Positions 42,001-48,000 of a DNA stretch of 64,000 bases are shown one piece after another. Origin of the DNA: Thermodesulfovibrionales bacterium (GTDB lineage Bacteria; Nitrospirota; Thermodesulfovibrionia; Thermodesulfovibrionales; SM23-35); NCBI GenBank assembly GCA_963715195.1, contig CAVQRT010000002.1:256001-320000 (forward strand), written 5' to 3'. Every line of letters starts with the position of its first letter. Position 1 is the stretch's first letter. Position numbers: made by a program.

Positions 42001-45000
42001 GATACCAGTATTCGTGGTGTTGCCACCAGGTGTTGTAGTAAGTTTCGCAAGCAAGGACGCTGTTCTGACCGTCCGCTCATAAATCTGCGTATAGTGGACG
42101 AGCCGTGCAGTTGCACCGTAGTCAGGCCCCTGCTGGGTCTGGAATTCTTCACAATCTTTATCAAAGAGATCATCATCACCGCTGCCATATGCAAAGGATG
42201 CCCTGATGTTTACAGGATCAATCATATAGCCCAGTTTCGCAAATACAGCCCATCCTTTCGGCTTGATGTCACTGTCTTCCAATTCATAGTTCTTAATTTT
42301 TCCGAACTGCATATCACCCTCTGCCGCATAGCTCAGACCGGAAATCATGCCTTTGGCATGGACACCGACATTTTGGAAATTGAGCTCGTCAACGTTGTTC
42401 TGCAAATAAGCAGGCACCGGCTCAAAGTCTTCATCTACTTCACCAGTAGTCAGTGGACGGACAGTTGCCGTCGCTGTGTACCCAAACATAATTAACACCT
42501 ATCATGTTGTCCTTGTCCCACTGGTATGTGGCAAGAGCAACATAACCGTCGAGGTCATCGGTGTGATTTAATACATCGCCCTCATTTAACTTTACGGTAC
42601 CTACAGCGATATGAAGTTCCTTCATCGGATCGGTCCAGAGGAGCAGTGCATCATCGCCGAATCTCTCATTGTTGAGGTATATCTTCTCGCCGAGGCTGAT
42701 AGGCATATGGCCGATCTTTATACCGGCTGGTACACCCATCAGCCCTGTCCCAGCATACTGAATCCATGCCTGCCTGATGAGGATATCTGCATTCGGTTTG
42801 GAATCATAACCACGTGCCTTATCACCCCAGTACCAGAGTCCGCTATTGGCGCTTCCGCCGCTTGCAGTCTCTAATTCAATCATCCCGCGAAGGCTATCGG
42901 AGACTTTTGCATCGACTGTGAGATAAACATTTTCATGCCAGAATGCATGGGAATTTGTATCCGCAGGGACTTCATTCTGTCCAGATAATCCGGATACATC
43001 CTGGACCCACCAGCCTTTAACCAGAATCTTACCGCCCAGTGTAATTTCCGGTTTGTCTTCTGCAAAGGCAGAAAACGCAAAACTTAATACCAGAAATACA
43101 CCTAACAATACTGCCAGATATTTCTTCACGTGTTAACCCTCCTTCTTTATCTAATGGTTCTATTCCTCTCAATTCCCTGAGCCGCAAACAGCGGCTATAC
43201 TGCTTTCTATATGCTTTTTGTTAACTTCTCTGTATCACCTCCTCCTCATAAAGATTTCAGCCTTCAATGAAGGCCCCCTTTCCTTTACATGCTCTAACGC
43301 AATCTTTCTTATTTCACTTTTCAAAAAAAACTGCGATTTTATATCATGCATCATACAATCTTGTCAAGAAAAACGACCCATCGCATGAGCGCAATTATCA
43401 CATTTCAGACTCCTGATTGCAAAAATAAGACCAGGAGCAGAAAAGAAGCTCGTGTGCGTGCAATATACTATAGAACTGCTTGAAAACACTATAAAAAAAT
43501 GTGTTGCCAGAGATTCCTACCAATATTCAGAGGGGAAATATATCGTGATGCGTTGAGATGATTTCTGTATCCTTTTTACAACATGCATGTAGTTCTTATG
43601 AGTCAAAAAGAGCTCTGCTTTTTCACTGTGCCTTCAGTATTGTGATAGAATGGTAAATGCCCGACCTGGTAAAGGTATCCGTCGTCTTTGCGCTGATTCT
43701 TGTCCTGCTGAGGAAAAAACTGAATATCGGCATCGTGATGTCGATTGCTGCCTTTACTCTGTTCCTTCTCTACCAGATGTCACCCTCTTCAATCTTCCAA
43801 ACGTTCAGGGGTGCTGTATTGAATGATGTAACACTCAAACTTGTCTTTGCACTATCGTTTATCCGCATGTTTGAGCTCATACTCAGGGAACATAATGTCC
43901 TCACAGAGATGATGGGTGCGGTAAAGGCTCTGCTGAAAAACAGAAAACTGGTTACGATCTCGATGCCGCTCCTGATTGGTATGATACCGTCAGTCGGCGG
44001 CGCATATTTCTCTGCCCCCATGGTTGCAGAAGCAACCGGTGACATAAGCATGAGCCCCGAGGAGAAAGGATTCGTGAACTACTGGTTCAGGCATCCCTGG
44101 GAATATATCCTGCCGCTCTACCCGGGCATTCTCCTTGCAGCAGCCATTTCAGGAGTTGAACTCCATAATCTCATTACCGCAAATCTCTCTTATGCAATTC
44201 TTGTTCTCATAACAGGCTTTATCTTCGGAATGAACAGCCTGAAGGGGTCAGCAAGCTCAGAGAAAAGACTCTCGAAGAAGGGATTGTGGAGTTTTGCCCC
44301 GATTTTTATGGTCGTTGTGTTCGTTCTCTTCTTTCATATCGAATTACAGTATGCCCTGATTGCTCTCGTCGTCTTCTTATTCCTATTTTACCGTTACGAT
44401 GTGAAATCAGTATATGCAGCATTCAGGCATGGCTTTGCCCTTGATGTTATTATCCTCATTCTTGGGGTTATGTTCTTCAAGGAGGCAATGGAGAGTTCAG
44501 GAGCGGTAAAAAACCTGAGTACATTTTTTATCGAGCAGGGAATCCCCGCGTCACCCGTTCTTTTTCTCCTGCCTTTCGTAACCGGTTTGATCACCGGTAT
44601 CACCCTGGGTTTTGTAGGAAGCACGTTTCCGCTCATTATCCATATAGCAGGGAGTGCTTCCATTGCAGCCATATCGTTCGCTTTCGCCGCAGGATTCCTG
44701 GGCGTTCTTCTTTCCCCTGTTCACGTCTGTCTTGTCCTGACAAGGGAATACTTCAAAGCTGATCTCTGGGGAATGTATAAGATGATGCTGCCGGCCTGCA
44801 TCATCATTTTTGCAGCAGCAGTAATACAGTATATGCTATTGAGTTAGTGACTCATAGCAAACGCTATTCTATATGGTTGTCATTCCCGCCTGCCGGGAAT
44901 CATTCCGAAAGCCAAGAAAGATTCTGGCCGAGCAGGAATGACGGACTTGGAGACTTGGGTTATATCAGCCTTTTATCACTCCCATCGGCCTCAACCGCGC

Positions 45001-48000
45001 AACCTTCCGTGAAATCCCCGCTTTATGAACCACATCGACAACATTGGTAATGTCTTTATACGCTTCTGACATTTCTTCCGCAAGTGTTTCACGCCCTGCA
45101 GACCTGACAATAATCCCTCTGTCCTCCAACTCTCTCCAGATCGCACGTCCCTTTGCCTTTTTGATCGCCTGATGCCTCGACATCACCCTGCCTGCGCCAT
45201 GACAGGTCGATCCAAAGGTCTCCTTCATCGCTCTTTCAGTTCCCAGGAGGACAAATGATGCCCTGCCCATGTCACCCGGAATCAGCACCGGCTGTCCGAG
45301 CGGTCTGTAAATCCCGGGCAATTCGGGGTGATTCGGGGGAAAAGCCCTTGTAGCGCCCTTCCGGTGAACTATCAGTTTCAGTCTTCTACCGTTCACCTCA
45401 TGCTCTTCAATTTTGGCAATATTATGAGCAACATCGTATATGAGACTCATGCCGAGTTGCCCCGGTGACATTCCAAATACGCTGATAAACGTCTCCCGCG
45501 CCCAGTGCATAATGCATTGTCTGTTTGCCCATGCATAATTAGCAGCCGCCCGCATTGCAGCGAGATAATCCAGGGCCTCGGGGCTTCCGACAGGTGCACA
45601 GGCAAGTTCCTTGTCCGGGAGGTCGATCTTATATTTCCTTACCGCCCGTTCCATAACCTCAAGGAAGTCGGTGCATACCTGATGACCAAACCCCCTCGAA
45701 CCGGTATGGATCATGACCGTGACCTGATCCCTGAAAAAGCCTAAACCGTTTGCTGCCGCCTCATCGTAAATCTCGTCGACGTACTGCACCTCAAGAAAAT
45801 GATTGCCTGATCCGAGAGTCCCCTGTTGAGCCCTGCCGCGTTCAAATGCTTTTGCACTAATGAGAGAGGGGTCTGCACCGTCTATGCATCCGCCCGACTC
45901 TGTTTTTTCAAGGTCTTCGGCATATCCAAACCCCTGCTCCACAGCCCAGCGCGCTCCTTTGAGGAGGAGTTTTCTTTCGGCTTCAGCATCGAGGCGTATT
46001 TTACCCTTTGAGCCGATACCCGATGGTATTTGATTCTGAAGGACCCCTACGAGGTCTTTGATCCTCGGGGCAACCTCAGCCCTTGTGAGGTTGCTCCTGA
46101 GGAGACGAACCCCTCAGTTTATGTCATAACCAACGCCGCCAGGCGAGATGATGCCGTCCTGCATATCAAAGGCTGCCACCCCTCCAATAGCAAAACCGTA
46201 GCCCGTATGGATATCAGGCATCGCCAGCGATGATTTCACGATGCCCGGGAGCATTGCGACATTCGCTACCTGATCGATTGCTTGCATTTCAAGCTCCTGT
46301 TCCAGAATATCATCGACATAAATGACACCGTTCACCCTCATCCCCGGCTTGAAATCAACAGGGATTTCTATCTTAGTACCATCAATTCTCCTCAGTTTCT
46401 CTATTGCCATATTGACCTCCGGTTCAGGTTATCACAAAAAATACATCCAAAAGTGCGGATGTTGTGAGAAAAATTATTTTTCGATACCGTAGTGTACACT
46501 GAACCGATGGTTAAGTGCATATTTTTACCCAGAGAGCGATGAAAGATATTTCAATCAAATCATCGGGTTAAATAATTTTTTGTCCGCCTCGGCGGATTCG
46601 CAGAGGCAAAAGGGATGTCTGAACTTTTGGGTTATATATCAAAAATAATCTCAGTCTCCCATATACGATCTTTTTTTTCTATTTTCAGACGGTGATAGGT
46701 GGCAGCCTTAATGAGCAGCTTTCCTTCATGGCGCTCCGAATCGAACTCCTCGCCATATACGATTGCCGTGATTCTGAAAGCCTCACCCACGAGCAGACCT
46801 CCTCCTCGAGTGGGGAGGGTAATGGAGGTGGTGAATTCAGTGATAGTAATTTTTTTGCCGATAAATCCGTAGGTGTCAAAATGAAAAATCAGCTCATTCA
46901 GCCACGAAACAAGGAGGCCATCGAGCGAATGACTTTCGACCGAAACTGTTATCGATTTTTGATCGGTGAGCAGATCGGTATTCGTAATGAGGCTGTACAT
47001 TCCCAGCGCAGCATGAACGAAGAGATCCTGTCTGCTCTTTCCGAAAGCCCTTATCCCGGCATCACCCGCAACGTCAAGGATTTCAAACTTTTCCATAAAA
47101 CCATTTGATTACAATGAAACCCCCTTACTTCTTTTCCGGTGCTTCTCCCTTATTGCCTTCGGGTTCGCCATTTGACTCTTCTTTCTTCTCTCCAGTTGCT
47201 GAGAGTTGTGAGACCGCCTCCTGGTTTATCTGCACGGTGTAGGTTTTTTTCAGGTCCTCGATGTACGAGTCAAAGAATTCTTTCTGTCTCTCTGCTGAAA
47301 CACGCTGGAAGAGCATACTCTTGATTTTTTCAAATTCAACAGGCTTCCCCTTCTTTTTGTCGGTAACCTTGATGATATGGTATCCGAATTTTGTCTTGAT
47401 CGGTACACTGCTGACTTCACCGGTCTTGAGTTTTTCAGCAGCAGCTTCGAATTCGGGGACCATCTGGCCGGGGGAGAAGTACCCGAGGTCTCCGCCGTTC
47501 CGGGCAGAACCAGTATCAATCGAACTCTTTTTTGCAATCGCTGCAAAATCTTCACCCTTCTTCAGTCTCTCCAGGATGTTCTTCGCCTCTTTCTCTGTTT
47601 TGACCAAAATATGGCTGGCTCTTATCTGGCTTACAGCGGAAAGCTCGTCCTTATGCTTGTCATAATAGTCTTTCACATCCTGCTCGGTGACCTTTGCCTT
47701 AAGCTCTATCTCCTTTTCAAGGAGCTGTCCGATAAGGGTAAGTTTCTTGAATTCTTCAAGTTTCTGCAAATATTCAGGGTCCTTTTGGAGTCCTTTTTTC
47801 ATGGCCTCCTGATACAGCAGCTCCTTCTTGATCATTTCATCGAGAAACTTCTCCTTTCCGGCAGTCCCCTCGAAAAGCTTCTGGGCAAACTCGGGCAGGT
47901 TCCTGAGGTCTCTTTCAAGATCATTTAGGGTTATTGTCTGGGAGCCGACTTTTGCAAGATACGGCCCTTTCTGCTCTCCTTTCCTGGCACAAGATACCGA

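What a model noticed while it worked through the whole genome (the two positions that open the first line are those of the whole stretch)
44965..46410. RtcB RNA ligase encoded as a selenoprotein (Sec at the metal-binding Cys)
The two gene calls g00321+g00320 are one rtcB gene read through an in-frame TGA: codon 99 sits exactly where all RtcB enzymes have the invariant metal-ligand cysteine ([12 protein letters not shown]; Cys98 of P. horikoshii RtcB). The TGA is followed by conserved hairpins (bacterial SECIS-like) and the genome has selA, selB, selD and tRNA-Sec, so RtcB here is a selenoprotein; the same TGA form occurs at 120 or more places in species genomes of several phyla. RtcB is absent from the 2026 inventory of 119 prokaryotic selenoprotein families.
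Evidence so far: In-frame TGA scan; translation with TGA=U gives a full 481-aa RtcB, U99. search_genomes over 390 Thermodesulfovibrionia genomes: 352 have RtcB; of the 150 best matches listed, 48 (this genome and 47 others, several families) are full-length frames with exactly one internal TGA, the other 102 have none. In the 30 fetched loci the codon aligned to Cys98 is TGA in 7 and TGC/TGT in 23. The 7 TGA forms share two hairpins right after the TGA (consensus -27 kcal/mol over 57 nt; 18 pairs, 1 compensatory and 5 G-C/G-U changes, 5 of 126 cells broken; call 140); 60-nt fold energies -24 to -32 for TGA forms against -7 to -26 for Cys forms. selA g00351, selB g00348, selD g00968, tRNA-Sec C15:7841-7938. 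N [...]
(Added by a program. Inside this text positions count along the whole contig: contig position 256,001 is position 1 of the stretch shown here. "Call 12" and the like, gene names such as g00115 and contig names such as C1 are that model's own, and its searches are not shown. The text may have been shortened before it was handed on; [...] marks where a part breaks off. The agent that wrote the report below was given it as the finding of a first reader that could run no searches.)

Follow-up and report, generated by a model that had tools for sequence, protein, structure and literature searches.

The report
Selenocysteine form of RtcB RNA ligase
This bacterium's only RtcB RNA-repair ligase gene has a UGA "stop" exactly where all studied RtcB enzymes have the cysteine that holds their two catalytic metal ions, followed by a conserved RNA hairpin, so it almost certainly encodes selenocysteine and belongs to a widespread selenium-enzyme family missing from the catalogues searched.

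Summary
Window 46410..44965 (minus strand) is one 481-codon rtcB gene. Its single in-frame TGA (codon 99, 46116..46114) aligns to the metal-bridging Cys98 of P. horikoshii RtcB. It is the genome's only RtcB and sits behind an archease gene. The genome has selA, selB, a Sec-containing selD and a tRNA-Sec with anticodon UCA.

In 110 RtcB genes of the same class, the 47 TGA forms keep a full open frame. They also carry an unusually stable hairpin after the TGA (within-gene z -3.0). The 63 Cys forms do not (z 0.05).

Its loop differs from the GGUC-type loops of fdhA and selD in the same genome.

dN/dS downstream of the TGA is 0.02-0.10. The TGA stands in contigs of three independent sequencing runs. 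At least 120 species genomes of several phyla carry the same form.

No paper, supplement or database name that I could search describes a natural Sec-RtcB. Selenium insertion itself is inferred, not shown.

This scan reached the same reading before, on seven other genomes.

The parts
44965..46410 (-). rtcB coding sequence: 481 codons plus a TGA stop at 44967..44965, read through one internal TGA
   Evidence: Translation with TGA=U. Pfam RtcB 1-426 of 426, 590 bits. 63-65% identical over the full length to solved RtcB structures, E 1e-186. It is the only RtcB match in the genome.
46114..46116 (-). In-frame TGA, codon 99: the proposed selenocysteine codon at the metal-bridging Cys98 position
   Evidence: Sequence and alignment to 1uc2/4dwr. 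The same column is TGA in 47 and TGC/TGT in 63 of 110 class genes examined. Contigs of runs X2, X11 and X17 cover it without a difference.
46063..46102 (-). SECIS-like hairpin from +12 to +51 after the UGA: 16 pairs with a bulged A at +16, one A.C mismatch in this copy, and a 7-nt apical loop CAAGGGC at 46085..46079
   Evidence: The fold of +11..+60 gives -25.3 kcal/mol. No other non-overlapping 42-nt window of the gene is as stable, z -4.1. Across 47 TGA forms, 82.7% of cells pair, 8 pairs show compensatory changes, and the basal 4 pairs hold in 187 of 188 cells. In Cys forms 62.8% pair.
46095..46116 (-). Alternative small hairpin that pairs the UGA itself (UGAGGGG with CUCCUCA). It competes with the base of the long hairpin
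   Evidence: It appears in the MFE fold of the 75 nt from the UGA. 93% of cells pair in TGA forms, but there is no change on both sides, and pair 5-21 is broken in 5 of 47 where the rival pairing 21-54 is kept. Its role is not settled.
46632..47096 (-). Archease gene directly upstream on the same strand (the activator of RtcB guanylylation in studied systems)
   Evidence: Pfam Archease 1-136 of 136, E 1.8e-35. Function is by homology (PMC10944509, abstract seen in the listing).

Best explanation
The gene encodes a full-length RtcB 3'-phosphate/5'-OH RNA ligase in which selenocysteine replaces the cysteine that bridges the two catalytic metal ions. When the ribosome reaches UGA99, a 40-nt mRNA hairpin that starts 12 nt downstream recruits SelB carrying Sec-tRNA(Sec). 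That tRNA has anticodon UCA and is charged through SerRS, SelA and SelD. Sec is inserted in place of termination, and translation runs on for 382 codons to the real TGA stop. The product should work like Cys-type RtcB, with archease-assisted guanylylation of His404 followed by RNA sealing, but with a selenolate as the bridging ligand.

Shown here: the UGA/Cys alternation, the intact and constrained frame, the hairpin specific to TGA forms, and the machinery.

Inferred: binding of SelB to this hairpin, selenium in the protein, and any catalytic consequence.
For: 1. U99 aligns to Cys98. D96, H204, H235, H329 and H404 are conserved. Cys98 ligates both metals, and C98A abolishes all steps (PMC9745838, passages).
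2. This is the only RtcB in a genome that is 97.8% complete. Archease lies upstream.
3. selA, selB, selD (itself with one TGA) and tRNA-Sec at 73.4 bits with anticodon TCA are present.
4. TGA ends 420 of 1144 long ORFs in this genome, so the code is not reassigned.
5. All 47 TGA forms examined in the class are full-length frames. In other phyla, 70 of the 73 loci whose downstream end is visible have 378-383 open codons after the TGA.
6. dN/dS after the TGA is 0.02-0.10 in 5 pairs of TGA forms, similar to 0.03-0.11 before it.
7. The window +13..+54 is among the 5% most stable 42-nt windows of its own gene in 45 of 47 TGA forms, against 6 of 63 Cys forms. Mean z is -3.0 against 0.05.
8. Covariation: 8 of 16 pairs have changes on both sides (2 of 500 shuffles reach this), and 27 such cells (0 of 500). 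82.7% of cells pair, against 38-53% when the partners are slid.
9. selA is found in 46 of 47 TGA-form genomes of the class and in 46 of 50 from other phyla. Two of the four misses show partial or frameshifted selA, one of them with a tRNA-Sec.
10. The TGA is present in contigs of three runs from three studies.
Against: - There is no proteomic, 75Se or reporter evidence. Insertion is inferred from sequence alone.
- The apical loop (7 nt, CAAGGGC, at +29..+35) lacks the GGUC/GAUC loop at about +19..+25 that fdhA and selD of the same genome show. SelB recognition of this hairpin is therefore assumed.
- No Rfam family matches.
- selA presence does not discriminate. It is also found in 74 of 80 Cys-form genomes of the class and in 81 of 101 sampled genomes of the phylum of one Acidobacteria-titled carrier, G397. 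That sample includes the unpublished genomes G487 and G462.
- Two TGA-form genomes, G418 and G436, show no selA and no tRNA-Sec above the cut-off. In G418 the gene has a second TGA (L060).
- An engineered P. horikoshii RtcB with Sec98 made in E. coli cleaved itself spontaneously (PMC4150793, passages). Sec at this site is therefore not trivially tolerated.
- Sequences in the comparisons are related, so the shuffle statistics overstate significance.
Confidence: 0.9

Rival explanations
1. The UGA is read through, but by something other than selenocysteine. Examples are Cys delivered on tRNA(Sec) when selenium is short, or near-cognate Trp/Cys/Arg insertion promoted by the downstream hairpin.
For: A stable hairpin after a stop codon can stimulate read-through in general (established knowledge, not tested here). 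The apical loop is unlike those of fdhA and selD in the same genome. The position needs a metal-binding residue, and Cys would serve.
Against: The position alternates only between UGA and Cys codons in the 110 genes examined, which is the classic Sec/Cys signature. Nearly all carriers have the Sec machinery. The other design of the hairpin, in other phyla, has the E. coli-like GGUC loop in 29 of the 47 that fit the strict register. Near-cognate read-through would be inefficient for the cell's only RtcB.
Confidence: 0.06
2. The gene is a pseudogene or a truncated remnant. Translation stops at codon 99 and the rest is decaying.
For: Gene callers split it into a 98-aa and a 325-aa ORF. A few TGA forms elsewhere do look damaged: L060, L086 and L088 have early stops.
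Against: 382 codons stay open after the TGA here and in all 47 class forms. dN/dS downstream is 0.02-0.10. The catalytic residues are all intact. The same TGA occurs in at least 120 species genomes.
Confidence: 0.02
3. RtcB is made as two separate polypeptides, residues 1-98 and a C-terminal piece, that assemble.
For: Two ORFs are called.
Against: The next in-frame start codon after the TGA is a GTG at codon 157, so residues 100-156 would be lost. The essential bridging ligand would be missing altogether. The hairpin and the Cys/UGA alternation would be left unexplained.
Confidence: 0.01
4. The TGA is a sequencing or assembly error for TGC or TGT.
For: None, beyond the fact that it is one base away from a Cys codon.
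Against: Contigs of three runs from three studies (X2, X11, X17) span 46114..46116 with no difference there. 47 related genomes and at least 120 species genomes carry the same TGA.
Confidence: 0.005

Closest known systems
Cys-type RtcB RNA ligases (P. horikoshii PH1602, PDB 1uc2/4dwq/4dwr/7lfq; T. thermophilus TTHA1785, 2epg; human RTCB)
   Same: Full-length homology (E 1e-186 to 1e-147). The ligands D95/H203/H234/H329 and the nucleophile H404 are identical. An archease partner gene lies next door.
   Different: The residue that bridges metals M1 and M2 is encoded by UGA instead of a Cys codon. Gene callers therefore split the gene.
Engineered P. horikoshii RtcB U98 (Haruna et al. 2014, PMC4150793; passages read)
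   Same: Sec at exactly the same position of the same enzyme family.
   Different: That protein was made artificially, by UAG suppression with EF-Tu and without a SECIS, and it cleaved itself. The paper names no natural Sec form. Here the Sec form is natural, conserved and SECIS-linked.
Selenoproteins whose Sec is a metal ligand: formate dehydrogenase FdhA (Mo/W) and F420-reducing hydrogenase subunits (review PMC13188914, passages)
   Same: Sec replaces Cys as a direct ligand of a catalytic metal. Sec and Cys orthologues coexist among relatives. The mechanism is UGA plus a downstream hairpin plus SelB.
   Different: Those are redox enzymes. RtcB catalyses nucleotidyl transfer at a binuclear Mn site and has no redox chemistry in its known cycle.
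Bacterial SECIS elements of the fdhF type (own-genome examples fdhA and selD)
   Same: A hairpin in the coding sequence shortly after the UGA. The base of the helix starts at +12. Synonymous sites are constrained.
   Different: The stem is longer (16 bp) and the purine-rich 7-9-nt loop lies at +29..+35, instead of a GGUC/GAUC loop at +19..+25. RtcB genes of other phyla do use the short GGUC design.

Membership tests
RtcB (Pfam PF01139) | Full-length match to the family profile above its curated cut-off | tested here: met
   590 bits against a cut-off of 27, profile 1-426 of 426.
RtcB (Pfam PF01139) | Metal ligands Asp95, His203, His234 and His329 and the guanylylated His404 (P. horikoshii numbering) | tested here: met
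   Identical residues at the aligned positions D96, H204, H235, H329 and H404. The roles of the ligands are taken from PMC9745838.
RtcB (Pfam PF01139) | Cysteine at position 98 bridging both metals | tested here: not met
   The codon is TGA. If it is read as Sec, the chalcogen ligand is kept as selenium. This is the point of the finding, not a reason to exclude the protein from the family.
RtcB (Pfam PF01139) | GTP- and Mn-dependent joining of 3'-phosphate and 5'-OH RNA ends | not testable with these tools
   Needs an enzyme assay.
Bacterial selenoprotein gene (SelB/SECIS-dependent) | In-frame UGA aligned to Cys in orthologues, with the frame conserved beyond it | tested here: met
   47 TGA against 63 TGC/TGT in 110 class genes. 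dN/dS downstream is 0.02-0.10.
Bacterial selenoprotein gene (SelB/SECIS-dependent) | Stem-loop in the mRNA within a few tens of nucleotides after the UGA | tested here: met
   Hairpin from +12 to +51. Within-gene z is -4.1 here and -3.0 on average for TGA forms, against 0.05 for Cys forms. 8 pairs show compensatory changes.
Bacterial selenoprotein gene (SelB/SECIS-dependent) | Apical loop motif recognised by SelB (G-U in a short loop, as in fdhF; motif recalled from the literature) | tested here: inconclusive
   The loop is CAAGGGC at +29..+35. fdhA and selD of the same genome have GGUCU and GAUC loops at +19..+25. The loop sequence is also fixed by the protein sequence.
Bacterial selenoprotein gene (SelB/SECIS-dependent) | Genome encodes SelA, SelB, SelD and tRNA-Sec(UCA) | tested here: met
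Bacterial selenoprotein gene (SelB/SECIS-dependent) | Selenium present in the protein | not testable with these tools
   Needs 75Se labelling or mass spectrometry.

The most novel reading that the evidence does not exclude
Sec-RtcB is a natural alternative answer to a known weakness of RtcB. The active-site cysteine is irreversibly oxidised in the presence of metals, and animals counter this with the dedicated oxidoreductase PYROXD1. A bridging selenolate would resist irreversible over-oxidation. It may also shift the metal preference of the binuclear site away from Mn towards softer ions. That would make this the first natural selenoenzyme acting on nucleic acids, and the first with Sec bridging two metal ions in a non-redox reaction. 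The many Sec/Cys switches would then track oxygen or metal exposure, or selenium supply, in sediment anaerobes.
Probability: 0.3. Interest if true: 0.88.

Novelty: new member of a known kind. Interest (0 to 1): 0.75.

Why it matters
RtcB is one of the best-studied RNA repair and tRNA-splicing enzymes, and its metal-bridging cysteine is its known weak point. That cysteine was found oxidised to sulfonic acid in a crystal structure (PMC9745838). In humans it is protected by PYROXD1 (PMC12263435, abstract).

A widespread natural selenocysteine version would add an RNA ligase to the selenoproteome. As the 2026 review describes it, most prokaryotic selenoproteins are thought to act in redox reactions, and many others are implicated in metal or metalloid resistance (passages).

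It would give enzymologists a natural Sec/Cys pair, differing by one atom, for probing the binuclear metal site. Closely related Sec and Cys forms exist even within one genus.

It also exposes a systematic annotation error. All 120 best full-length database homologues are Cys forms, and the TGA forms do not appear among them as whole proteins.

Finally, it offers a well-sampled case of Sec/Cys exchange, with hairpin remnants that fade in the Cys forms.

Tried and rejected
The UGA-containing hairpin pairs well (93% of cells) but has no change on both sides, and it is broken in 5 of 47 at pair 5-21. RNAalifold and the pair counts favour one long hairpin.
- selA co-occurrence as a discriminating test. 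The condition is satisfied, but the base rate is about as high in Cys-form genomes (74 of 80) and in a phylum sample (81 of 101).
- De novo scan of the genome for further selenoprotein genes, to compare their hairpins. The codon-score filter missed selD and fdhA or let in hundreds of false candidates, so I gave it up. Only fdhA and selD served as comparators.
- Rfam scans of the hairpin region and of the archease-rtcB spacer found nothing meaningful. The best E-values were 3.7 and 0.59, far below the gathering scores.
- Expression. The only RNA-library run (X20) holds two 151-nt contigs inside the gene, at 45243-45393 and 45576-45726, and none over the TGA. DNA carry-over cannot be excluded, so this is no evidence of transcription.
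- Search for protein changes linked to Sec. Only conservative I/V and K/R shifts turned up, plus R116, whose codon lies in the hairpin base. There is no remodelling of the active site.
- Names in databases. None of the 120 best homologues is named as a selenoprotein. No NCBIfam model for a Sec-RtcB matched.
- Supplements of the 2026 review could not be read. Supplements of bioRxiv preprints are closed.
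Full report
**1. What is in the sequence**

On the minus strand, window 46410..44965 reads as one frame of 481 codons with a single internal TGA at codon 99 (46116..46114) and a terminal TGA. 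Under table 11 it splits into a 98-aa ORF and a 325-aa ORF. The second ORF can start only at a GTG at 45942, which would lose residues 100-156.

The read-through protein matches Pfam RtcB over the whole profile: 1-426 of 426, 590 bits. It also matches solved RtcB structures over their whole length, with E 1e-186 for P. horikoshii and 1e-147 for human RTCB.

In that alignment U99 lies on Cys98. The other metal ligands and the guanylylated histidine are identical: D96, H204, H235, H329 and H404.

According to PMC9745838 (passages), Cys98 ligates both metals: M1 with His234 and His329, M2 with Asp95 and His203. Its mutation to alanine abolishes every step, and it was found oxidised to sulfonic acid in one structure.

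An archease gene lies directly upstream on the same strand, at 47096..46632. This is the only RtcB match in a genome estimated to be 97.8% complete.

**2. Is the TGA real, and is TGA a stop here?**

Contigs of three runs from three studies span the site without a difference there: X2, with one 1525-nt contig, X11 and X17. Nineteen DNA runs from 17 studies of estuary and marine sediments hold at least half of the gene's sampled words. One of them may be the source sample.

In the genome, TGA ends 420 of 1144 ORFs of 300 or more codons, and after most of those TGAs the frame closes quickly. The genetic code is therefore ordinary.

**3. Sec machinery**

- selA is at C2:330720-332072, 624 bits.
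- selB is at C2:326140-327990, 356 bits.
- selD is at C7:136569-137492 and is itself interrupted by one TGA.
- tRNA-Sec is at C15:7841-7934, 73.4 bits. ARAGORN gives anticodon TCA.

selB and selA lie 24-30 kb from rtcB on the same contig, outside the window.

**4. Relatives**

In 390 genomes of the same class, 351 have an RtcB match at E<=1e-50. Of the 150 matches listed, 48 have exactly one TGA and 102 have none.

I examined 110 genes: the 30 loci plus 80 fetched regions. That covers 47 of the 48 TGA forms and 63 of the 102 Cys forms, the Cys forms being my choice. The codon aligned to Cys98 is TGA in 47, TGC in 46 and TGT in 17.

Within the window's own genus, two genomes have TGA (G000, G188) and two have Cys (G189, G190).

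dN/dS between pairs of TGA forms is 0.02-0.10 downstream of the TGA and 0.03-0.11 upstream. The part after the "stop" is therefore under the same protein-level constraint as the part before it.

By their record titles they come from Thermodesulfobacteriota, Acidobacteriota, Nitrospirota, Binatia, Eisenbacteria, Gemmatimonadales and Polyangiaceae.

Of the 80 loci fetched with flanks, 73 show their downstream end. Of these, 70 have 378-383 open codons after the TGA, and 3 are shorter: L060, L086 and L088.

**5. The RNA element**

The 42 nt from +13 to +54 fold at a mean of -18.8 kcal/mol (sd 2.8) in the 47 TGA forms, against -7.3 (sd 4.4) in the 63 Cys forms.

To control for base composition, I compared that window with all other in-frame 42-nt windows of the same gene.
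- In TGA forms the mean z is -3.0, and 45 of 47 lie in the most stable 5% of windows.
- In Cys forms the mean z is 0.05, and 6 of 63 do.
- In the window's gene z is -4.1, and no non-overlapping window is as stable.

For the Cys forms that equals the shuffle mean.

RNAalifold, run without my model, found an outer helix with clean covariation: C-G in 42 and U-A in 5 sequences at one pair; C-G 41, G-C 4, G-U 1 and U-A 1 at another; none broken.

Joining this outer helix to the inner stem gives one hairpin of 16 pairs with a bulged A, from +12 to +51 (window 46102..46063). On the 47 TGA forms it scores as follows:
- 82.7% of cells pair, against 38-53% when the partners are slid.
- 8 pairs show changes on both sides (2 of 500 shuffles reach this).
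- 27 cells show such changes (0 of 500).
- The four basal pairs hold in 187 of 188 cells.

The Cys forms give 62.8%.

The small hairpin that pairs the UGA itself competes for the same CUCCUCA stretch. It has no covariation, so its role is open.

The sequences are related, so these shuffle counts are not probabilities. The contrast between TGA forms and Cys forms of the same clades is the stronger argument.

**6. How canonical is the hairpin?**

In the same genome, fdhA has a GGUCU loop at +19..+23 and selD a GAUC loop at +22..+25. The rtcB hairpin has a longer stem and a 7-nt loop, CAAGGGC, at +29..+35. Whether this genome's SelB binds it is assumed, not shown.

In other phyla, RtcB uses a different, short design. 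Of 120 loci, 47 fit a strict 5-bp stem at +17..+30. Their loops are GGUC (29), GGUU (11) and others (7).

A further 26 loci fit the long design. One locus was too short. The other 46 did not fit either strict register; many look like register-shifted short hairpins with compensating stems, such as GACCAGUUUGGUC. I did not quantify that last point.

**7. Evolution**

A maximum-likelihood tree of the 110 proteins needs at least 17 Cys/Sec changes, of which at least 10 are forced by well-supported branches. Label shuffles need 35.7 on average, and 0 of 500 are as low.

The window's gene groups with the three others of its genus (support 98). That group sits inside a clade of 33 rows in which 30 are Cys forms.

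Cys forms close to Sec forms on the tree keep more stable remnants of the hairpin. The mean is -11.0 kcal/mol for the nearest third, -7.4 for the middle third and -6.1 for the farthest third, against -22.3 in Sec forms. Spearman rho is 0.42, not corrected for phylogeny.

This fits repeated one-step Sec-to-Cys replacements (TGA to TGY) followed by decay of the hairpin. The direction of change is inferred, because the tree is unrooted.

No change at the active site accompanies Sec.

**8. Machinery co-occurrence**

selA is found in 46 of 47 TGA-form genomes of the class. The one miss, G322, is 83% complete and has a tRNA-Sec. selA is also found in 74 of the 80 Cys-form genomes searched.

Among 50 TGA-form genomes of other phyla, 46 have selA. 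Of the four without it:
- G399 has a partial selA.
- G427 has a frameshifted selA and a tRNA-Sec of 74.6 bits.
- G418 and G436 show neither. G418 holds L060, the gene with a second TGA.

A sample of the phylum of one Acidobacteria-titled carrier (G397) has selA in 81 of 101 genomes. This tally includes the unpublished genomes G487 and G462.

The condition is therefore met, but it is a weak discriminator.

**9. Is it known?**

Full-text searches for RtcB with "selenoprotein" or "selenocysteine", for "splicing ligase" with "selenoprotein", and for "RNA ligase" with "selenoprotein families" returned no paper on a natural Sec-RtcB.

The one relevant paper made P. horikoshii RtcB U98 artificially and saw it cleave itself (PMC4150793, passages).

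- The 2026 review of 119 prokaryotic selenoprotein families does not contain "ligase", "RNA-splicing" or PF01139 (PMC13188914, term search of the main text). Its supplements could not be read.
- The supplements of BSepDB and deep-Sep contain no RtcB, ligase, splicing or PF01139.
- A 2026 review of tRNA-ligase enzymology has no word beginning with "selen".
- No NCBIfam model marks a Sec-RtcB.
- The 120 best full-length database homologues all carry Cys and ordinary names. The closest is 85% identical, although a TGA form that is 89% identical exists.
- Subscription journals and closed supplements were not searchable.

Earlier agents of this scan reached the same reading on seven other genomes. 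I re-tested the claim here rather than relying on them.

**10. Verdict**

It is a new selenoprotein family that works by a known mechanism. Its hairpin is lineage-specific and differs from the classical loop. Selenium insertion and its biochemical meaning remain to be shown.

Noticed in passing
window 46449-46582 (spacer between archease and rtcB); also window 10836-10964: A dispersed repeat of about 130 nt sits between archease and rtcB. blastn finds 24 further full or partial copies on many contigs of the genome (C25, C6, C31, C7 and others). It explains the very high contig depth at 46412-46500 in the laid runs. It contains a terminator-like hairpin at 46462..46443 (minus strand). No Rfam family matches.
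   Followed up: partly
L022-L141 (loci): RtcB genes with the TGA use at least two hairpin designs. One is a short stem with a GGUC-type tetraloop at +17..+30, mostly in Thermodesulfobacteriota, Acidobacteriota and Binatia. There the hairpin itself encodes R-S-G-L-S or K-T-S-L-V. The other is the long +12..+51 hairpin of Nitrospirota. Whether these are separate origins was not tested.
   Followed up: partly
L060 (genome G418, Gemmatimonadales by title): This TGA-form rtcB has a second in-frame TGA 133 codons further on. Its genome shows no selA and no tRNA-Sec above the cut-off. It may be a decaying copy or a mis-binned contig.
   Followed up: partly
L151, L152, L226 and other Cys-form loci of the class: Some Cys-form genes keep a nearly intact hairpin (-17 to -20 kcal/mol, up to 11 of 12 inner pairs), as if they had lost the TGA only recently.
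   Followed up: partly
window 44965-46410 (protein residues 98-481): The NCBIfam model for intein-containing RtcB (NF038162) matches from residue 98 onward at profile position 578. The known intein insertion point is therefore the same Cys/Sec position. In intein-bearing relatives that residue is also the splice-junction nucleophile.
   Followed up: no
G000:C2:155225 (outside the window): An in-frame TGA in the context ...EQCCGC-TGA-FPVCARN, with 182 open codons on each side. It looks like another candidate selenoprotein gene of this genome. I did not identify it.
   Followed up: no
G000:C7:304088-306847 and C7:136467-137516 (outside the window): fdhA and selD of this genome each carry one in-frame TGA, followed by a short hairpin with a GGUCU or GAUC loop. 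In all three genes (fdhA, selD, rtcB) the minimum-energy fold pairs bases of the UGA itself.
   Followed up: partly
genome G427 (holds L071), C8:2469-3523: selA appears only as several short pieces in different frames on one contig, next to an intact tRNA-Sec elsewhere. This is probably a frameshift error of a long-read assembly.
   Followed up: no
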